Source: the human T2T-CHM13v2.0 reference genome, Homo sapiens
Direction: 5' to 3' (one strand)
NCBI RefSeq assembly: GCF_009914755.1
Contig: NC_060937.1
Length of the DNA: 64,000 nt
Shown here: positions 5,422-53,500 of the stretch, piece by piece
Numbering within the stretch: the first letter of the stretch is position 1
Layout: the number at the start of each line of letters is the position of its first letter
Notes under the pieces: generated by a model
Told to the model about the DNA's origin: nothing
Databases searched by the model: none
Seen by the model: the letters and a program-made list of their open reading frames with translations, nothing else
Translations under genes and position numbers: made by a program

Positions 5422-5734
5422 TATCTTAGTCTGTTCAGGCTGCTTTAATAAAATACCATCAACTGGGTGGCTTATAAACAATAAACATTTATTTCTAATA
5501 ATTATGGCTGGGAATTCCAAGATGAAGGCATGGGAAGATTTAATATCTGGTAAGAGACCATTCCTCATAGATGGTGCCTTCTTGCTGTGTCCTCACCTGG
5601 TAGAAGGTGCAAATGAGCTTTTGGGGGCCTATTTTATAAAAGCACTAATCCCATTCCTGAGGGATTCACTCTCATGATTTAATCACCTCCCAAAGGCCCC
5701 ACCTTCCATACCATCACATTAGAAATTGGATTTC
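5422..5734 (-). mobile_element. MaLR LTR (MLT1A-like), first part; split by an L1 and resuming at ~13314-13357
   Basis: MLT1 sequence ends at ccatcacattagaaattggatttc and resumes aacatgtgaatttttgagtgacacaaacattcagacc after the L1. Confidence 0.8.
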
Positions 5735-40936: not shown

Positions 40937-41449
<513 letters not shown>

Positions 41450-41649
41450 TGACCGGACCATCTTGCCAGCCACCCTACCTTTTCTTTCTGTAATTCTTAT
41501 ATGAGCTAAATGATACACAGTTTTCCCCGATAGTCTAGGGCTTGTTTCACATTCTCCTAACAGTACATTTTGAAGAGGTTATGTTCTTAATTTTAACTAA
41601 GTTTAATTCATGATTTTTTTCTTTTGTACACTGTTTTTGGTATTATCTA

Positions 41650-42000
<351 letters not shown>

Positions 42001-42529
42001 TTACATTTAAGTCTATGATCCACTTGAGTTAGTTTTTGTATATAGTGTGAGGTGTGGCTTGAATTTTTCTTTTCTTGCTTAAGGATTTGCAACTGATTTC
42101 TATAATTTTTTTAATAAAGACACTATTATTTAAAAGAACAAATATTTAACTATGCAAACTGTGAAAGTGGAGGATATGCCTGCCTCCTGTTCCCAGGGAG
42201 AAGGCAGAAGTGGGTGGGCAGGGGAAAGGTAAGGGTTTTGAGAGCAACACGGTCTCTTCAGTGTGGGCTCTGCAGGCTAAGGAGAGGCGGGGCTGAGGCT
42301 TGCAGAATGCTCAGGTGAAGCAGTGGGAAGTGCCCTGGTGGGGACAGTGGCTCCTGTGGGGGTAAAACAAGGGTCAATAGGATGAGGCAGTCTGGAGGCT
42401 CAGGAGAAGGTGGCAGGGCCCTGACTCTAGGCTGGGCTGCAGGCTGGGTGTGCGCAGAGGTACATGGTCCTCCCGGGGCGGCTCCTTGGGGTGTAGGAAG
42501 GCCCAATACAGACATTGTTGCACCTACTC

Positions 42530-43300
42530 CTAGAGCTCCCAAGGTGGCTCTTCAACTGGGCTGTGGCCGGCGTACTTCCTGCAGTAGGGCAGGCTGCAGG
42601 CTGAGGGAAGGCTGCTTCTCCTGGAAGACACTGCTGCTGGAGAGTGGAGGCTTCTTCTGAGCGGCCCAGGCCTGGGCACAAAGGCGGGGACCTCTCCATG
42701 TCTCCTGATGGGCTTGAAAGCTGATAGCCTGGGTGATGGGATCTGCTTGCTACGCTTGGTGTCTGGGACCTCAAACCAGAGTGGCTCATCGAATTTCCTT
42801 TTTCCCTTGCTGTGCTGGCTGAGGGCCTACAGCATGGTCTCCCTGGCACAGGGATCTGGGGCCTGGGGGGAGGTGGCGCTTATACAGGCTCCCCTCTGTG
42901 CTCCGGCGGGGCGATTTTCACTGTCACCAGGCTGCGGACGGGCTGGGGGGTGCCGGGCCTTCCAAAGCCACTGCTTCATGTAGGCCAGGTGAGCCTCAGA
43001 AAAGTCCGGCCCAGTGATGCTCAGGAGCGGTGGCCTGTTGGGAAAGTGCCTCCAGGCCTCAGGGACCATCTCTCTCTGGATACGGGCATAGTCCCAGTTG
43101 GGAGGAGCGGTGAGGAGGGGCCGGGTGCGGACCCAGCGCTTCCCATTGACGTAGACGACTTTGCAGCCATCCTTGACCTGGGAGCGGAGAAGGGGCCTGG
43201 ACCGCAAGGCCCGGTGTTTCTGGGATTGGGGCGGCACCCTGGCCCGGGGCGGCACTATGGTCCGGGGCCAGCCCAGGTACCAGCTCAAGTAGTTGCCCAT
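42530..43300 (-). pseudogene. POM121L13P: Intronless POM121-like pseudogene, POM121L2/POM121L12 type (probably POM121L13P; symbol from memory)
   Basis: MGNYLS start at 43300; EAWRHFP...AYMKQWLWKARHP; off-frame SLVTVKIAPPE (POM121 SPVTVRIAPP); DPCARETML*ALSQ..KRKFDEPLWFEV..SAFKP..AFVPRPGPLRRSL after the TAG at 42827-42829. Confidence 0.85.
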
Positions 43301-43530
43301 GACAGCAATGCAGTAGTCGGGACGTTCTCTTAGAAATTCAGCTTCCAGAAGTTTCCGAAGTCTGCGGCCGGGGCCAAGTGTGCTGAGCTTGGTGACCGTT
43401 GGAATCAGGACGCCAGAAAGCGCGCAAAGCATCGCAAGCTGGCACCCTCTGGCCATAGGGTTCCGCACGGGCCAGGCCGGTGCCTCGCGGAATCCGGGAC
43501 ATCACGGGGCGCAGCTGCAGCGGGGGAGGG
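42880..43530. promoter_or_regulatory. CpG-island-like GC-rich segment over the 5' part of the POM121-like gene
   Basis: Dense CpGs (gcggccgggg, gcgcgc, cctcgcgg) in an otherwise CpG-poor window; judged by eye. Confidence 0.55.
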
Positions 43531-43992
43531 CAGCACCCAGATGATCTGGGGGACGAGGGAAGCTCAAGCCTCCCTCCTTCCCACTGATGGTCCCAGTCAC
43601 TTGGCTCTGGGCAGAGGGGCCTAGCAGCTGCCTCTACTTTTGTGCCTGACCTTTAAAGGTAGAAGATAGAATTTCTGCCAGGTCCTGAAAACTGCAGATG
43701 CCTGTTGACAGAAGGGTGCTGTTTTTGATCAGTGTGAAAATGAACACAATACACTTGGATACTCTTTCAAGGAAAAACAAATCATTTACTCATATCAGTA
43801 AAGGTGATGTGTGTTTCATTCTTCTAGGATGGATGTTAATGTCACTTTTTGCAATTTTGCTCTTAAGAAAATGGAGTCATCAGGTTTTGTTTTAGCACAG
43901 GCAATGTTGATTTTTTGTGGATTTCCTGTGATTTCCAGCCTTCGTACATTCATGAATAGATTGTCTGTCTCTGAACACTAATGTCATCTCTC

Positions 43993-46900
43993 TTTTTTTG
44001 CTTTTATTTTTTAAAATTATTTCAGTAGTTTTTGGGGGAAAGGTGATGTTTGGTTATATGTATAAGTTCTTTAGTGGTGATTTCTGAGGTCTTGGTGCAC
44101 CCATTACTCTAGCAGTGTACGTTGCATGCAATGTGTAGTCTTTCATCCCTCACTCACTTCCCACTCATTCCCCCAAGTCCCCAAAGTGCATTGAATCATT
44201 CTTATGCCTTTGCATCCTCATAGCTTAGCTCCCACTTATGAGTGAGAACATACAATGTTTAGTTTTCCATTCCTAAGTTACTTCACTTAGAATAATGGTC
44301 TCCACCTTCATCTAGGTTGCTGTGAATGCCATTATTTCTTTTCTTTTTTAAGGCTGATTAGTATTTCATAGTACGTTTGTACCACATTTTCTTTATCCAC
44401 TCGTTAATTGATGGGCATTTGGGCTGATTCCGTATTTTTGCAATTGTGAATTCTGCTGCTCTACACATGTGTGTGCAAGTATCTTTTCTGTAAAATGAAT
44501 TCTTTTCCTCTGGGTAGATACCCAGTAGTGGGATTGCTGGATTAAATGGTAGTTCTGTTTTTAGTTCTTTAAGGAGTCTCCACACTGTTTTCCATAGTGG
44601 TTTGTAGTAGTTTACATTCCCACCAGCAGTATACAAGTGTTCCCTTTTCACAACATCCCCACCAACATCTATTGTTTTTAGATTTTTTTGATTATGGCCA
44701 TTCTTGCAGGAGTAAGGTGGTTATCGCATTATGGCTTTGATTTGCATCTCCCTGATGATTAATGATGATGAGCATTTTTTCATGTTTGTTGGCAATTTGT
44801 ATAATTGAGAATTGTCTATTCATGTCTTTAGCCCACTTTTTGATGGGATTATTTTTTTCTTGCTGATTTGTTTGAGTTTCTCATAGATTCTGGATGTTAG
44901 TCCTTTGTCAGATGCATAGTTTGCAAAGATTTTCTCTCACTCTGAGGGATGTCTGTTCACTCTGCTGATTATTGCATTTACTGTGCAGAAGCTTTTTAGT
45001 TGAATTAAGTCCCAGCTATTTATCTCTCTTTTTATTGCATTTGCTTTTGGGTTCATGGTCATAAAATCCTTGCCAAAGCCAGTGTCTACAAGGGTTTTTC
45101 TGATGTTATCTTCTAGAATTTTTATGGTTTCTTTAATTTTTGTAGATTTAAATCTTTGATCCATCTTGAGTTGATTTTCTTGTATAAGGTGAGAGATGAG
45201 GATCCAGTTTCATTCTTCTGCATGCAGCTTGCCAATTATCTCAGCACTATTTGTTGAATAGGGTGTCCTTTCTCCACTTTATGTTTTTGTTTGTGTTGTT
45301 GAAAATCAGTTGACTGTAGGTATTAGGCTTTATTTCTCGGTTCTATATTCTGTTCCATTGGTCTATGAGCTTATTTTCATATGAGTACCATGCTGTTTTG
45401 GTGACTGTATCCTTAAAGTATAGTTTGAAGTCAGGTGATGTGATGCCTCCAGATTTGTTCTTTTTGCTTAGCCTTGCTTTGGCTATGCGGACTCTTTTTG
45501 GGTTCTATATGAATTTTAGAATTGTTTTTTTCTAGTTCCGTGAAGAATGATGGTGGTATTTTGATGGGAATTGCATTGAATTTGTAGATTGCTTTTGGCA
45601 GTGTGGTCATTTTCACAATATTGATTCTACCCATCCATGAGCATGGCATGGGTTTCCATTTGTTTGTGTCATCTGTTATTTTTTTTGGCAGTGTTTTATA
45701 GTTTTCTTTGTAGAGGTCTTTCACTCCTTAATTAGGTGTAATATATTTCCAAGTGTTTTTTTGTTTGTTTTGCAGCTATTGTAAAAGGGGTTGAGTTCTT
45801 GATTTGATTGTCAGTTTGGTTGCTGTTGTTGTATAGCAGTGCTACTGATTTGTGTATATTGATTTTGTATTCTGAAATATTGCTGAATTCATGTGTCAGT
45901 TCTAGGAGCTTTTAGGATGAGGCTTTAGGGTTTTCTAGGTATACCATTATGTCATTGGTGAACAGCGACAGTTTGACTTTCTCTTTACTGATTTGGATGC
46001 CCTTTATTTCTTTCTCTTGTCTGATTACTCTGGCTAGGACTTCTAGTACTATGTTGAATAGAAGTGGTGAAAGTGGGCATCCTTGACTTGTTCCAGTTCT
46101 CAGAGGGAATGCTTTCAGCTTTCCCCCATTCAGTATAATGTTGGCTGTGGGATTGTCATAGATGGCTTTTATTACCTTAAAGTATGTCCTTTCTGTGCTG
46201 ATTTTGCTGAGGGTTTTAATCATAAAGGGATGGTGGATTTTGTCAAATGCTTTTTCTGTGTCTATTGAGATGATCATGTTATTTTTGTTTTTAATTCTGT
46301 TTATATGGTGTATCACATTTATTGACTTGCATATGTTCAACCATCCCTGCATCTATAGTATGAAACCCACTTGATCATGGTGGATTACCTTTTTTATATG
46401 CTGTTGGATTCCATTAACTAGTATTTTGTTGAGGATTTTTACATCTGTGTTCGTCAGGGAAATTGGTCTGTAATTTTCTTTTTTTGTGATGTTCTTTCCT
46501 GGTTTTAGTATTAGGGTGATAATGGCTTCATAGAATGATTTAGGGAGGATTCCCTCTTTGTCTGTCTTTTGAATTAGTGTCAATAGGATTGGTACCAGTT
46601 CTTCTTTGAAGGTCTCATAGAATTCAACTGGGAACTCATCTGGTCCTAGACTTTTTCTTGTTGGCAATTTTTTATTATCATTTCAATCTTGCTGCTTATT
46701 ACTGGTCTGTTTGGAGTTATAATTTCTTCCTGGTTTAATCTAGGAAGGTTGTATATTTCCAGGAATTTTTCCATCTCCTCTAGGTTTTCTACTATGTGCA
46801 TGTAAAGGTGTTTATAGTAGCCTGGAATGATCTTTTGTATCTCTGTGGTATCAGTTATAGTATCTCCTGTTTTGTTTCTAATCAGGTTTATTTGGATCTT

Positions 46901-49900
46901 CCCTCTTCTTTTCTTGGTTCATCTTGCTAATGGTCTATCAATTTTGTTTATCTTTTCAAAGAACCAGCTGTTTCATTTATCTTTTGTATTATTTTGTCTT
47001 TCAATTTTATTTAGTTCTGCTCTGATCTTTGTTATTTCTTCTCTTCTGCTGGATTTCAGTTTGGTTTGTTTTTGTTTCTCTAGTTTCTCGAGGTATGACC
47101 TTAGATTGTCTGTTTGTCCTCTTTCATCTTTTTGATGCAGGCATTTAATGCTCCAAACTTTCTTTCCTTGTAGCACTGCTTTTGTTGTATCCCAAAGGTT
47201 TTAATAAGTTGTATCACTGTTATCATTTGGTTCAAAGAATTTTTAAATTTCCTTCTTGATTTCATTGTTGACCCAATGATCATTCAAGAGCAGGTTATTT
47301 AATTTCCATGTATTTGCATGCTTTTGAGGGTTCCTTTTGGAGTTGAGTTCCAGTTTTATTCCACTGTGGTTTGAAAGAGTACTTGATGTAATTTCAATTT
47401 TCTGAAATTTATTGAGACTTCTTTTGTGGCCTATCATGTGGTCTATCTTGTAGAATGTTCCATGTGCTGATGAATGTACATTCTGCAGTTGTTGGGTAGA
47501 ATGTTCTGTAAATATCTGTTAAGTACATTTTTTCTAGGGTATAGTGTAAGTCCATTGTGCCTTTGTTGACTTTCTGTCTTGATGACCTGTCTAGTGCTGT
47601 CAATGGGGTACTGAAGTCTCCCACTGTTATTGTGCTGCCATCTTATCTCATTTTTTTAGGTCTAATAGTAAATGTTTTATAAATTTGGGAGCTCCAGTGT
47701 TAGGTGTATATACATTTAGGGTTGTGATATTTTCCTGTTGGACTAGTCCTTTTATCATTACATAATGTTCCTCTTTGTCTTTTTTAACATTTTGCTTTAA
47801 AGTCTGTTTTGTCTGATATAACAATAGCTACTCCGGCTCATTTTTGGTGTCCATTTGCATGGAATGTCTTTTTCCACCCCTCTACCTTAAGTTTATGGGA
47901 GTCCTTATGTGTTGTTAGATGAGTCTCTTGAAGAGAGCAGATACTTGGTTGATGAATTCTTATCCATTCTGCCATTCTGTATCATTTAAGTGGAACATTT
48001 AGGCCATTAACATTCAATGTCAATATTGAGGTGTGAGGTACTATTCTACTCATTATGCAGGTTGTTGCCTGAATACCTTGTTGTTGTTTTTTTGTCATTC
48101 TGTTATTGTTTTATACATCCTGTGAGATTTATGCTTTAAGGTGGTTCTATTTTGATGTATTTTGAGAATTTGTTTCAAGATTTATAACTCCCTTTAGCAA
48201 TCTTGTAGTTCTGGCCTGGTAGTGGCAAATTCTCTCAACATTTGTTTGTATGAAAAAATTCTGTGTCTTTCATTTATGAAGCATAGTTTCATTGGATACA
48301 AAACTCATGGCTGACAATTGTTTTGTTTAAGGAGGCTAAAGGTAGGACCCCAATCCCTTCTGGCTTGTAGGGTTTCTGCTGAAAAATTCGCTGTTAATCT
48401 GATAGATGTTCCTTTATAAATTACTTGATACTTTTTCCTCACAACTTTTAAGATTCTTTCCTTTGTCTTCACTTTAGATAACCTGATGACTAGGTGCCTA
48501 GGCAATGATCTTTTGCGATAAATTTCCCGGGTGTTCTTTGAGCTTCTTGTGTTTGGCTATCTAGATCTCTAGCAAGGCCAGAGAAGTTTTCCTTGATTAT
48601 TCCCTCAAATGTGTTTTCCAAACTTCCAGATGTCTTTCCTTTCTCAGAAACACCAATTATTGTTACATTTGGTCATTTAACATAATCCCAAACTTCTTGG
48701 AGGCTTTGTTCATTTTTTAAAATTCTTTTTTCTTTGTCTTTGTTGGAATGGGTTAATTCAAAAGCCTTGCCTTCGAGCTCTGAATTCCTTTCTTCTGCTT
48801 GTTTGATTCTATTGGTGACAATTTCCAGTGTATTTTGCATTTCTCTAAGTGTGTCCTTCATTTTCAGAAGTTGTGATTGTTTTTTATTTATTTATGCTGT
48901 TTCTCTGGAGATTTTTTCATCCATGTCCTATAACATTGTTTTTTAAGTTGGTATTCACCTTTCTCTGGTGCCTCCATGTGTGGCTTCATACTCAAACTTC
49001 TGAATTATTTTTCTGGCAATTCAGAGATTTCTTCTTGGTTTGGCTCAATTGCTAGTGAGCTAGTGTGATCTCTTGGGGATGTTAAAGAATCTTGTTTTGT
49101 CATATTACTGGAATTGTTTTTCTGGTTCTTTCTCATTTGGGTAGCCTATGTCAGAGGGAAGATTTGGGGCTGAAGGGCTATTGTTCAGATTCTTCTGTCC
49201 CACAGGGTGCTCCCTTGATGTGGTGTTCTCCTCCCTTCCCCTAGGGGTGGGGCTTCCTGAGAGCCAAACTGTAGTTATTGTTATATTTTTTCTGGGTCTA
49301 GCCACCTAGCTGAGCTACCAGGCTCCAGGCTGGTACTGGGGAGTATCTGCAAAGAGTCCTCTGATGTCATCTGTCTTCAGGTCTGTCAGCCGTGAGTAAC
49401 GAGCACCTCCTCCAGTGGAGATAGCAGGGGAGTGAAATGGACTCAGAGAGGGTCCTTGGTTGTAGTTTTTAGTGCACTGGCTTAGTGTTGGTTGGCCGCC
49501 AGCCAGGAGGTGGTGCTTTCAAGAGAGCCTCAGCTGCAGTAGTGTAGGGAGGATACAAGCTTGCCCTAATGCCACCTGGGTGGTAAGTATTTGGTTTCTT
49601 AGGTGGTGGACAGGGCCATAGAGCTCCCAAGAGATGGTGTTCTTTGTCTTCAGCTACCAGGGTGGGTAGAGAAAGACCATCAGGTGGGGGCAGATTTAGG
49701 CATGTCTGGGCTCAGACTCTCCTTGGTAGAGGGGGCTTCCTGTGGCTGTTGTGGAGGATGAGGATGTGGTTTCAGGCCAATGGAGTTATGTTCCCAGGGG
49801 GATTATGGCTGCCTCTGCTGGGTCACGCAGGTTGCCAGGGGACTGGGGGAAAGCTGGCAGTAACAGGCCTTACCCAATGCCCATACAGCCAGCAACGCCA

Positions 49901-50572
49901 GTCTCACTCCCACCATGGCCCCCCAACAGCACGAGAGGGACATGCCCCAGGCTACAAGCCTCCCTGCTGAGAAAGCAAGCGGGACTTTCAGGTTTCACGT
50001 CTCCCCACCTGCAGCAGCTTCTGTGCGCCTGTCTGTACTCCCAGATCACCTCCTCTCCAGACTCTGTCCAGGAAACTGCACAAATCGTTTCAAAGTTCAG
50101 CTGGAATTTTCCTTCTCCCTGTGATCTTTCCCCAATTCCACTGGCACCCCTCCCCAAGAACTCCTGAGAGACAAAAGCAGAAATGGCTTCCCTGGGGTCT
50201 GAGAGTGCCCACGGAACTCTTCCCACTGCTTCCCCTACCCCTATATTTTGCTCAGCTCTCTAAATTTGTCTTAGCTCCCTATAAGGTCAAATCCTTCTCC
50301 CATGATCTGGTTCTTCAGGCTCCCCAGTGAGGATGTGTGTTTGGGGGCAGTCGTTCCCCTTTCACACTTTAGACACTCATAGTTTGTCAGTGTGTCATGG
50401 AGCCCGCAGCAACAAGCCACCTCTTTCAAAGGGTCCGTGGATTCTCTCAGCTTTCCTGGTGTGTTCTTCAGTAGTTCTTGGAGCCAAAGTTCACAGTGTG
50501 TCTCCACAAGCTGCTCTGTCCATCTGAATGGGAGCCTCAAGTTAGTCCTGCCTCCTGTCTGCCATTCTCCCT
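43993..50572 (-). mobile_element. Full-length inactive LINE-1 (L1PB1-like)
   Basis: 3'UTR ttatttcagtagtttttggggga...aagttctttagtggtgatttctgag; ORF2 fragments (45912..46352 [17 protein letters not shown]); ORF1 48305-48861; 5' end gggagaatggcagacaggaggcaggactaac on -. Confidence 0.95.
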
Positions 50573-50596
50573 CACTTTCTGATTTCTATTCTTTTT

Positions 50597-53500
50597 ACTC
50601 TTCTTCTGCTTATACTGGGTTTGATTAGTTGATGTCATTGGTTGGAGGTCTTTCTTTCATTGTGTATGTGTTTAGTACATAAATTTCTCTGTATATGTTG
50701 TAGTTACAGTCCACAAATTTTGACACACTGGGTTTTCATCTTCATTGAGTTCAAAATATTTTCAGATTTCCCTTTTTGATTTCTTCTTTGGTCCATGGTT
50801 ATTTGGAAGTGTATTGTTTAGTTTGCACATATTTGGGGACCTCTCAAGGACCTTTCTGTTATTGATCTCTAACTTGTAATTCTTTGGTTGGAGAACATAC
50901 TTTGGATGATTAAAAAAAAAACCCTATTCCTCTCCTCACAGCACCTCTGACACGACACGTGTGGGGTTTCCACACCAAGCAATTATCCACTTCTCTGTGG
51001 ACGCCACCCGAGTGTCCTACAATTTGATTCAAGTATAACACTAATTACCCAGAGTTAGCACAGACCACACAGGTTAAGGGCTCAATCTCACAAGACTACC
51101 CCTCACTTTAGGTGCCAACTACAAGTAGTAGGTGTGTATGTGACCCACACGTCTGTCTGACTTGGCTACAAATTGGAGGTTCTCACAATCTCCTCCATAA
51201 GTTGAATAATTTATTAAAACAGCTCACAGAACTCAGGGAAACATCTTACTTACATTTACCAGTTTATTATAAAAGATATGATAAAGGATACAGATGAACA
51301 GCTGGATGAGGAAGTACATAGAGTCAGGTCCAGAGGGGTCCTGAGTGTGGGAGCTTGTGTCCCCACAGAGAGAGGTTGCTCCACCCTATTGATACCTGGA
51401 TGCATTCGCCAACCCAGAAGCCCTCTGAATCCTATACTTTAGGGATTTTTATAAGGCTTCATCACATAGACATGACTGATTCTTAACTCAATCTCCAGCC
51501 CCAGAGGAAGGGGAGAGAGGGAGCTGAAAGTTCCAAGCTTCTAATCATGGCTTGGTCTTTTTGGTGACCAGCCCCTATCCTGAAACTATCCAGGAGCCAC
51601 CAAGACAGTCTATTAGGGCAAATGATGCTTCTGTTACCCAGGAAATTCCAAGGGATTTAAGAGCTCTGTGTCAGGAACTGGGATCAAAACCAAATGTTAG
51701 AACAAAAGATTCTTCTAGCATCCATATCACTCAAGAAATTACAAGGGTTTTAGGAGCTCTGTGTCAGAAATTGGGGACAGAGACCAAATATATATGTTTC
51801 TTATTATGTCGCAGATGACTTGAATCCTTTTAAATTTATTGAGCCTTGTTTTAAGACCCACAGCAAAGTCTGTCTTGGTAAACATTTCATGCCTATTTAA
51901 AAACAGTGTCTACTCTGCTGTTGTTATGTGGAGTGTTCTACAAATGTCATAGGTCAAGTTGGTTGAAGCATTGTCAAGTATTCTATACCCTTACTGATTT
52001 TCTGTCTACATGTCCTACCAGTAGCTGAGAGAGGGCTTGAAATCTCAGACTGTAATTGCAGACTTGTCTGTTTCCTTTGTCAATTTTATCAGCCTTTCCT
52101 CCATGTATTCTGAAGCTCTATAAGGTATATAAAGTTTTAGTTTTATCATTTTGATGAATTGGCCACTTTATCATTATGAGATGAACTTCTTTATCCCTGG
52201 TAATACTTTTTTCCTTGAAATCTGCTTTTTTCATTGTTAATAGAGCCACTTCAGCTTTCTCTTAGTTTCAGCATGGTATAATCTTTCCATACTAACCTTT
52301 TCATCTATTTGTCTATTGATTTTTAAGTAGGTTTCTTATAGGCCTCATGTAATTAGATCTTACATTTTTATCCAATCTGAAATCTCCGGCTTTCATATGC
52401 ATTTGATGTTATTACTGATTTATTGAGATTAAATCTACCATCTTGCCGTATTTTCTATTTAACCCATATGTTCTTTCTTTTCTTTTCCCTCTTTTACTGC
52501 CTTCTTTTGGCATTGGATAGTTTTTTATGATTCCATTTATCTCCTTTGTTCATGTATTAGCTATCTGTCTCTTATTTTTGTGTTCTCAGTGGTTGTTTTA
52601 GGGTTCATAATATATGTCATTAGTTTTAACATTCTAGCTTCAAGTGACATTATATCACTTTGTACATGGTGTAGGAATCTTACAACAGCATATTTCCATC
52701 TCTCTTCTGGCATTTGTGCTATTGTGATTATATATTTTGCTTCTACATATATTATGAACCTATAATACATTGTTATTATTATTGATTATCAACACTCAGT
52801 TTTCTTTTAAAGAAATTTAAATAAGAAGAAGTCTGAGTTACTCATTTAATTGCCATTTTTAGTATTTTTTATTTCTTTGTGTAGATCTGCACTTCTATCT
52901 GGTATCATTTTTCTTCTGCCTGAAGGACTTCCTTTAACATTTATTGTAGTGGAGATTTGCTCGTGGTGAATTCTTTTGGTTTTTGTTCACCTATACTTTT
53001 GATAAATATTTTTGCTTTGTTCAGAATCCAAGTTGGCATTTTTTTTCTTTAAGTACTTAAAGATGCTGTTGTAGTGATTTCCAGCTTGAATGGTTTCTAG
53101 TGGAAAATCTGCTGTTATTCTTATCTGTGGGTCTTTGTACATAATGTGTCTTTTTTCTCTGGCTGCTTTAAAGATGTTCTCTTTATCTTTGGTTTTGAGC
53201 AGTTTGATTACAATATGCCTTGATATTGTTTTCTTCCTGTTTTTGTGCTTGAAGTTTGTTGAAATTTTTGGATCTGTTTTTATACAGTTTTCATCAAATA
53301 ATAGGGTGTTTTGTCCATTGTTTCTTCAAATATTTTCAGTCCTAATTCTTCGTCTTCAGGGACTCTAATTACACATTCATTAGGCCTCTTCAAGTTGCCC
53401 CAGAGCTCCTGTTCAAAGTGATATTCTGTTCATTTCTTTGAGTATTTCTTCTCTCTGTGTTTCATTCTAGATAGTTTCTCTTGCTATATCTTCACTACTT
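50597..53500 (-). mobile_element. Ancient L1M ORF2-ORF1 region, split by a MER21 LTR
   Basis: Decayed reverse L1 EN and ORF1 sequence (tactctgctgttgttatgtggagtgttctac, gaaaatctgctgttattcttatc). Confidence 0.7.
50910..51813 (-). mobile_element. MER21-family solo LTR
   Basis: acccagagttagcacagaccacacaggttaagggctca, ggaaattccaagggatttaagagctctgtgtcaggaac; flanking gatga duplication. Confidence 0.8.

What the first reader, a model, noticed from the sequence alone, without database searches (positions are those of the whole stretch)
42093..50596. POM121-like gene apparently delivered as a ~1.9 kb L1 3' transduction
Seen: the - strand L1PB (43993-50572) has no convincing TSD at its own 3' tail. 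The sequence beyond its 5' end (ctgatttctattcttttt, 50579-50596, followed by ac, close to the L1 endonuclease TTTT/AA site) recurs 16/18 identical at 42093-42110 (ctgatttctataattttt), next to a short T-run, on the far side of the POM121-like gene. Both outer flanks are old - strand L1M sequence. Known: L1 read-through transcripts mobilise downstream DNA. Inference: L1 + ~0.7 kb upstream region + POM121L ORF + 3'UTR (about 8.5 kb) were inserted in one event, i.e. a whole single-exon gene copied with its own putative promoter rather than a classic promoterless retrocopy. This could be a mechanism for dispersal of the POM121L family.
Basis: partly seen in the sequence, partly recalled or inferred. 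Interest (0 to 1): 0.8.

Follow-up and report, generated by a model that had tools for sequence, protein, structure and literature searches.

The report
POM121-like retrocopy fused behind an L1
A 1.9 kb RNA-derived copy of an X-linked POM121-like gene lies directly behind a full-length L1 inside one pair of target-site duplications, so L1 machinery put it there; whether by read-through (3' transduction) or by a second insertion into the L1 tail cannot be settled from this genome, and either way it is a known kind of event.

Summary
The two 18-mers match 16/18, which is far above chance. They bracket a full-length minus-strand L1 (about 44003-50573) plus a 1.9 kb POM121-like unit (42113-44002).

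The unit is an RNA-mediated copy of a chrX locus. Homology to two chrX copies starts at the L1 3' end. It stops about 35 nt after the chrX copies' only AATAAA.

3' transduction is plausible but not shown.
- The chrX loci have no adjacent L1.
- The L1/unit junction has no A-run.
- A retrocopy landing in the L1's tail, or a template-switch chimera, gives the same anatomy.

The three other chr13 paralogues that also follow this L1 are segmental duplicates of a block of at least 20 kb, flanks included. They are not independent transductions, so "a dispersal mechanism for the family" is not supported.

The L1-like flanks lie about 1.8 kb apart in L1 coordinates, so they are not two halves of one site. 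The window's ORF ends prematurely.

Verdict: a new member of a known kind, of modest interest.

The parts
50579..50596 (-). 5' copy of the target-site duplication. It is preceded in sense orientation by GAGT, which gives a TTTT/AC nick site on the opposite strand.
50574..50578 (-). 5 unassigned bases between the TSD and the L1 5' terminus.
   Evidence: other L1 5' ends align up to 50562-50573
44003..50573 (-). Full-length but dead L1 of a primate-age family. The subfamily label L1PB is not verifiable here. ORF1 domains lie at 48308-48891 and RT at 45915-46682.
42113..44002 (-). POM121-like retro-unit: the exact stretch shared with two chrX loci (about 78% identity overall). It starts within about 3 nt of the L1 terminal AATAAA and ends about 35 nt after the parent's only AATAAA.
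43600..43992 (-). AT-rich, CpG-free upstream block. It is 90% identical to chrX copy X1 and only 3-4% diverged among chr13 copies D, A and B.
43201..43600 (-). CpG-island-like stretch around the start codon (GC 0.60-0.67, CpG o/e 0.63-0.88).
42827..43468 (-). Open frame of 213 aa. The family-conserved start MGNYLSW is at 43300. The frame ends in a TAG at 42829-42827 where copy A reads on to a 291-aa frame.
42106..42112 (-). A7 run after the unit (T7 on the + strand). 5 of the 7 bases can equally be the start of the TSD, so little or no poly(A) remnant is left.
42093..42110 (-). 3' copy of the target-site duplication.
41995..42092 (-). Left flank: an antisense old-L1 fragment that maps to about 45140-45236 of the window's own L1.
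50597..50911 (-). Right flank: an antisense old-L1 ORF2 fragment that maps to about 47078-47356 of the window's own L1. It continues at 51889-52038 after an unrelated insert.

Best explanation
Proposed history:
1. An L1 of a primate-age family had inserted just upstream of an X-linked, intronless POM121L12-like gene. This source allele is not present in this genome.
2. Its transcript ran past the weak L1 terminator and through about 0.7 kb of upstream DNA, the CpG island and the coding region. It was polyadenylated at the gene's own AATAAA.
3. The 8.4 kb RNA was reverse-transcribed at a TTTT/AC nick in old L1 debris on chr13. This gave TSD - L1 - unit - TSD, i.e. a 3' transduction.
4. Later a block of at least 20 kb containing the composite was duplicated to four chr13 sites.

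Shown: one footprint with a real TSD; RNA-mediated origin from a chrX-like parent; the later segmental duplication.

Inferred: that the RNA was an L1 read-through, rather than a separate gene transcript that landed in the L1 tail or was joined to it.
For: - The TSD brackets L1 plus unit and is far above chance. It is nearer to perfect in the inferred ancestor.
- No repeat bounds the L1 alone or the unit alone.
- The L1 and the unit have the same orientation. The unit begins within about 3 nt of the L1 terminal AATAAA in all 4 chr13 copies.
- Homology to chrX covers exactly 42113-44002. It ends about 35 nt after the only AATAAA in 1.7 kb of the chrX unit, i.e. the first terminator a read-through would meet.
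- The unit includes about 400 nt of CpG-free DNA upstream of the CpG island. On chr7 the equivalent point lies about 1 kb upstream of the island and ORF. This is more easily explained as untranscribed upstream DNA carried by a read-through than as a 5' UTR. That reading is an inference.
- The review PMC5470649 (passage read) states that L1 transduction of downstream DNA could encompass a gene.
Against: - No L1 lies next to either chrX copy. The nearest L1 pieces are 9 kb away or inverted, and are only 68-76% identical to this L1.
- No other locus in the genome carries the unit (all 8 candidates scored).
- The L1/unit junction has 0-3 nt in place of an internal A-tail. PMC4859970 (passage read) says a 3' transduction typically has two A stretches.
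- The terminal A-run is only 7 nt and overlaps the TSD.
- The transcription start of the parent is unknown, so the unit could be a complete or truncated gene transcript.
- Unit-to-chrX distance (K about 0.22-0.27) is somewhat larger than L1-to-L1 distances (13-16% difference). The comparison is confounded by GC content.
Confidence: 0.42

Rival explanations
1. Nested insertion. The L1 inserted first, with the 17-18 nt TSD. Later a polyadenylated transcript of the X-linked POM121L12-like gene was retroposed into the L1's A-tail in the same orientation. The L1's 3' TSD copy then ends up beyond the retrocopy.
For: - It predicts exactly the observed order TSD - L1 - unit - TSD.
- It needs no L1 at the parent locus, which matches chrX.
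- The unit ends at the parent's polyadenylation site, as any processed copy does.
- A-tails are favoured L1 endonuclease targets (established knowledge, recalled).
Against: - It needs A-rich TSD and tail remnants on both sides of the unit. Only 0-3 nt are seen upstream and 7 nt or fewer downstream.
- It needs a parent transcript that starts at least 400 nt upstream of the CpG island, in CpG-free DNA.
- No intron loss is available to prove a processed mRNA (no intron-sized gaps).
Confidence: 0.33
2. Template-switch or RNA-joining chimera. Reverse transcription began on the poly(A) of a POM121L12-like transcript, reached a point 0.7 kb upstream of the ATG, then jumped to the 3' end of an L1 RNA and copied it to its 5' end. 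This would be one insertion event without any L1 at the parent locus.
For: - The two parts join directly in the same orientation with no A-run between them, in all 4 copies.
- The 5' part is a full-length copy, the composite has a common TSD, and no source L1 is required.
- L1 chimeras with mRNAs are documented (bioRxiv 10.1101/2025.02.02.635956, abstract and passages read).
Against: - Catalogued chimeras have the L1 as the 3' partner and small RNAs or exons as the 5' partner (same preprint). The feature list of chimeric retrogenes is recalled, not read.
- The jump would have to land exactly at the end of the L1 body.
- 8.4 kb of continuous reverse transcription across a jump is demanding.
Confidence: 0.13
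3. No single footprint. The 18-mer match is a chance resemblance of T-rich L1 debris. The L1 and the unit arrived independently, perhaps with a 1.8 kb target deletion.
For: - The flanks are about 1.8 kb apart in L1 coordinates.
- Each 18-mer can be loosely aligned to L1 sequence at its own position (the window agrees with the majority of 18 L1 copies at 8 of 18 columns in the left 18-mer).
Against: - 16/18 was reached by 0 of 1,932 pairs and by 1 of 2,706 tiles in the controls.
- The repeats sit exactly at the two ends of the composite, start with the A-run and have a TTTT/AC site.
- The paralogues make the match better, not worse.
- No alternative TSDs exist.
Confidence: 0.07

Closest known systems
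L1 3' transduction (Moran 1999; Goodier 2000; Pickeral 2000). These were seen only as citations in PMC5470649 and PMC4859970; the original papers were not held.
   Same: An L1 followed in the same orientation by unique DNA that ends at a downstream polyadenylation site. One TSD encloses both, at an endonuclease-type nick site.
   Different: There is no internal A-run. No source locus with an L1 exists in this genome. The cargo is a whole intronless gene with its upstream region (1.9 kb). Transduction of a whole gene is mentioned in the review only as a possibility.
SVA-mediated transduction of the AMAC1 gene (Xing et al. 2006).
   Same: An entire intronless gene is copied as retrotransposon-transduced sequence.
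   Different: The carrier there is SVA and several independent copies exist. Here the carrier is an L1, there is a single event, and the later copies arose by segmental duplication.
Processed retrocopy inserted into the A-tail of an older retroelement
   Same: It gives the same final anatomy, and the parent needs no L1.
   Different: It needs two events and a parent transcript that begins 0.7 kb upstream of the ATG. The A-rich remnants expected on both sides are nearly absent.
Chimeric L1 insertions by template switching or RNA ligation. The U6/L1 type and the mRNA/L1 chimeras of bioRxiv 10.1101/2025.02.02.635956.
   Same: Two RNAs are joined head to tail without an A-run, share a TSD and end in a 3' poly(A).
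   Different: In the catalogued cases the foreign RNA lies 5' of a usually truncated L1. Here a full-length L1 lies 5' of the gene copy.
POM121L12 (chr7) and POM121L2 (chr6). These gene names are recalled from chromosome position; no tool gave them.
   Same: Homologous N-terminal region and Pfam PF15229 segment. The upstream AT-rich block is shared with the chr7 locus.
   Different: The window copy has a premature stop before the Pfam segment. The chrX parents are broken in this genome.

Membership tests
L1 3' transduction | Non-L1 sequence directly 3' of the L1, in the same orientation. | tested here: met
L1 3' transduction | The TSD encloses L1 plus extra sequence, not the L1 alone. | tested here: met
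L1 3' transduction | The extra sequence ends at a downstream poly(A) signal and is followed by a poly(A) tail. | tested here: inconclusive
   The end lies about 35 nt after the parent's AATAAA. The A-run is only 7 nt, and 5 of those can belong to the TSD.
L1 3' transduction | A second, internal A stretch (the source L1's tail) between the L1 and the transduced DNA (PMC4859970, passage). | tested here: not met
   0-3 nt in all 4 chr13 copies.
L1 3' transduction | The transduced DNA maps to a locus lying directly 3' of a source L1. | tested here: not met
   Both chrX loci lack an adjacent L1, and no other locus exists. A lost, unfixed source allele cannot be excluded.
Processed retrocopy (nested in the L1 tail) | The copy ends at the parent's polyadenylation site, and parental flanks are not shared. 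| tested here: met
Processed retrocopy (nested in the L1 tail) | Loss of introns relative to the parent. | not testable with these tools
   The unit and the chrX copies are colinear without intron-sized gaps, and the parent appears intronless.
Processed retrocopy (nested in the L1 tail) | The 5' end lies at or downstream of the parent's transcription start. | not testable with these tools
   No expression data are available. The CpG island lies about 400 nt downstream of the boundary, which argues weakly against this.
Template-switch chimeric retro-insertion | Two RNA copies joined directly in the same orientation, with a common TSD and a 3' poly(A). | tested here: met
Template-switch chimeric retro-insertion | The usual partner order: a small or cellular RNA at the 5' side and a truncated L1 at the 3' side. 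| tested here: not met
   The order is reversed and the L1 is full length.
POM121 family protein (Pfam PF15229) | The protein scores above the Pfam gathering cut-off. | tested here: not met
   The window ORF has no hit. Copy A scores 20 bits against a cut-off of 27. The chr7 ORF scores 30.4 bits and the chr6 ORF 131.8 bits. Homology is shown by BLASTP at 2e-30 and 2e-26.

The most novel reading that the evidence does not exclude
An L1 read-through copied a complete intronless gene together with a working CpG-island promoter from chrX to chr13. The copy stayed unmethylated and transcribed in the germ line, and after fourfold segmental duplication at least one copy still encodes a protein. That copy is A at chr13:28.00 Mb, with a 291-aa frame. 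This would be a gene family born by L1 3' transduction rather than by classical promoterless retroposition.
Probability: 0.1. Interest if true: 0.6.

Novelty: new member of a known kind. Interest (0 to 1): 0.3.

Why it matters
If the read-through origin were proven, this would be a clean natural example of L1 moving a whole gene with its own promoter. Reviews mention that route to gene duplication as possible but document it rarely.

As it stands, the locus is a useful caution. A retrocopy in an L1 tail and a 3' transduction leave the same footprint. Paralogues that all sit behind "the same L1" can be plain segmental duplicates.

The window copy itself is a pseudogene inside an MTUS2 intron, and nothing shows that it does anything.

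Tried and rejected
- **Source L1 near the paralogues.** I examined 20 kb around each chrX copy and around the chr7 and chr6 loci. I found only distant L1 pieces (68-76% identity), either 9 kb away or inverted.
- **Other carriers of the unit.** One search found none beyond 4 chr13 sites, 2 chrX sites, and weak chr7 and chr6 matches.
- **An "empty site" in other L1 copies.**
  - 18 genomic L1 fragments matching the left flank stop aligning at window 42048-42075.
  - One locus (L041) has left-like and right-like pieces 133 bp apart. The right-hand match is weak (71%), and the mapping onto L1 coordinates contradicts contiguity, so I rejected it as an empty-site proxy.
- **Dating the L1 against the unit**. 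This was not decisive, because the unit's rate is heterogeneous (K from 0.10 to 0.43 along it).
- **An 8/10 resemblance** between chr13 sequence after the unit and chrX sequence after the homology end. It is chance: 341 of 5,000 shuffles and 87 of 1,249 tiles reach it.
- **A purine-rich 12/14 match** between the unit's first bases and the flank beyond the 5' TSD. It is misplaced for a TSD and is shared with chrX, so I rejected it.
- **dN/dS** between the window copy and copy A is 0.66 over 193 codons. This gives no clear sign of constraint.
- **Papers.** Pickeral 2000 and Szak 2003 were not held.
- **Print searches.**
  - 'pom121l' with 'retrotransposition' found 3 papers (2 listed, both read as passages), neither about this locus.
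  - 'pom121l13p' found 0.
  - The main text of bioRxiv 10.1101/2025.02.02.635956 does not mention POM121 or MTUS2. Its supplements are closed and could list this locus.
Full report
**What is there.** The window is chr13:28520001-28584000 of the human T2T assembly.

On the minus strand lies a dead, full-length L1.
- Nine other genomic L1 5' ends stop aligning at window 50562-50573.
- 36 other L1 3' ends, 84-87% identical, stop at 43984-44028, and 14 of them stop at 43999-44006.
- ORF1 domains (48308-48891) and reverse-transcriptase pieces (45915-46682) are recognised in 5 of 10 open fragments.
- One frame holds 92 stops.
- I could not check the subfamily name L1PB, because no repeat library is on hand.

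Immediately 3' of the L1, in the same orientation, lies a 1.9 kb GC-rich unit (42113-44002) with a 213-aa open frame.

**The unit is POM121-like but broken here.**
- The window ORF has no Pfam hit.
- Paralogue A (chr13:28.00 Mb) has a 291-aa frame. It matches the chr6 1,035-aa ORF (Pfam PF15229, 4e-38) at BLASTP 2e-30. The match starts at the shared MG.(Y/F)LS start. It matches the chr7 312-aa ORF at 2e-26.
- I recall these two genes as POM121L2 and POM121L12 from their positions. No tool named them.
- The window copy has a TAG where A reads on, just before the Pfam segment.
- dN/dS between the window copy and A is 0.66 over 193 codons.

**The repeat is real.**
- The 18-mers match 16/18. That was reached by 0 of 1,932 random pairs of antisense-L1 stretches, by 1 of 1,353 window tiles against the left zone and by 0 of 1,353 against the right zone.
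- In sense orientation the repeat begins with the A-run and follows GAGT, which gives a TTTT/AC nick site.
- The 5' copy lies 5 nt from the L1 5' terminus. The 3' copy abuts the end of the unit.
- Copies A and C carry the same repeat, and the inferred ancestral pair is about 16/17.
- No repeat bounds the L1 alone (best 12/14, misplaced) or the unit alone (best 11/14).

**The unit is RNA-derived from a chrX-like parent.**
- A whole-genome search with 42111-43992 scored all 8 candidates. It found four chr13 sites, two chrX sites (15.229 and 15.285 Mb, about 75-79% identity), and short chr7 and chr6 matches.
- Against a 13 kb query, the chrX homology covers exactly 42112-43992 at both loci.
- In the alignment it starts within about 3 nt of the L1's terminal AATAAA. 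It ends at a shared CTTTATTA, about 35 nt after the only AATAAA in the chrX unit.
- Upstream of the boundary, chrX carries non-L1 DNA that stays homologous to the chr7 locus for another 830 bp. So chrX and chr7 are DNA-level paralogues and chr13 is the derived copy.

**Why 3' transduction is not proven.** Three histories give TSD - L1 - unit - TSD.
- (a) Read-through from an L1 upstream of the parent.
- (b) A gene transcript retroposed into the A-tail of an L1 that was already there. This leaves the L1's 3' TSD beyond the retrocopy.
- (c) A template switch from the gene RNA to the L1 RNA.

Evidence against (a):
- Neither chrX copy has an adjacent L1.
- No other carrier of the unit exists.
- The L1/unit junction shows 0-3 nt where the source L1's A-tail should be, in all four chr13 copies. 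A review states that transductions typically show two A stretches (PMC4859970, passage).

Evidence for (a):
- The unit contains about 400 nt of CpG-free DNA upstream of a CpG island that surrounds the start codon.
- On chr7 the equivalent point is about 1 kb upstream of the island and ORF. If transcription starts in the island, which is an inference, that DNA is not in the normal mRNA.
- The parent's first terminator after the boundary is the one that was used.
- A source allele that never became fixed would leave no trace.

Histories (b) and (c) need a transcript that starts far upstream. History (b) also needs A-rich remnants that are almost absent. History (c) fits the A-less junction but reverses the usual partner order. 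I put (a) at 0.42, (b) at 0.33, (c) at 0.13 and a chance or independent origin at 0.07.

**The chr13 paralogues are segmental duplicates.**
- Copies at 28.00, 28.26 and 28.43 Mb align to the window well beyond both TSDs. The alignment runs from about 35,000 to at least 57,000 in pieces, including the left flank in A and the right flank in C.
- The four copies differ by 7-9% in the L1 body.
- They therefore descend from one composite and are not separate transductions. Spread of the family by transduction is not supported.

**The flanks.**
- Both are antisense old-L1 debris. The left flank maps to about 45140-45236 of the window's own L1, and the right to about 47078-47610.
- So the pre-insertion site already had, within about 50 bp of the nick, a 1.8 kb discontinuity. 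I cannot explain why the two coincide. An empty orthologous site would show whether it pre-existed.

**Comparison and novelty.** L1 3' transduction, nested retrocopies and L1 chimeras are all known (PMC5470649 and PMC4859970, passages; bioRxiv 10.1101/2025.02.02.635956, abstract and passages). I found nothing in print on this locus. The supplements of the preprint are closed. This is a new member of a known kind, of modest interest.

Noticed in passing
window 43600-43992 and the same stretch of L013, L015 and L017: The AT-rich upstream block differs by only 3-4% among copies D, A and B, against 8-9% in the adjoining L1 (Fisher p between 1e-3 and 8e-5). Copy C is at the neutral 8.5-9%. The cause could be constraint or local gene conversion.
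   Followed up: partly
window 43201-43600; also copies A and B: A CpG-island-like stretch keeps CpG o/e of 0.63-0.89, while the 3' part of the unit has decayed to 0.15-0.26. This suggests long-term germ-line hypomethylation of the copied 5' end.
   Followed up: partly
window 42092 / 50579-50627: The two old-L1 flanks are about 1.8 kb apart in L1 coordinates, and the break lies within about 50 bp of the insertion nick. The coincidence is unexplained.
   Followed up: partly
L019-L022 (chrX 15.218-15.238 and 15.275-15.295 Mb): The two chrX copies are 97.6-99.75% identical in the 3' part of the unit but only 87% identical in the 5' block. This is likely gene conversion. Both coding frames are broken.
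   Followed up: partly
L015 near 5535-5539 and L017 near 5038 (window 42913-42925): Copies B and C both lose colinearity with the window at almost the same point inside the ORF, and both lack the 3' half of the unit. This suggests a shared older deletion.
   Followed up: no
window 40939-41457 and 41663-41994: Alu-like insertions are present in the window copy but absent from copy A. They probably arrived after the segmental duplication.
   Followed up: no
window 50912-51888: About 1 kb of unidentified sequence, beginning with an A10 run, interrupts the right-hand old L1, which resumes at 51889.
   Followed up: no
L013 5353-6228 (chr13:28.00 Mb, copy A): Copy A keeps a 291-aa POM121-like open frame that reaches into the Pfam PF15229 segment (20 bits, below the cut-off). 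It is the only chr13 copy that could still encode a protein.
   Followed up: partly
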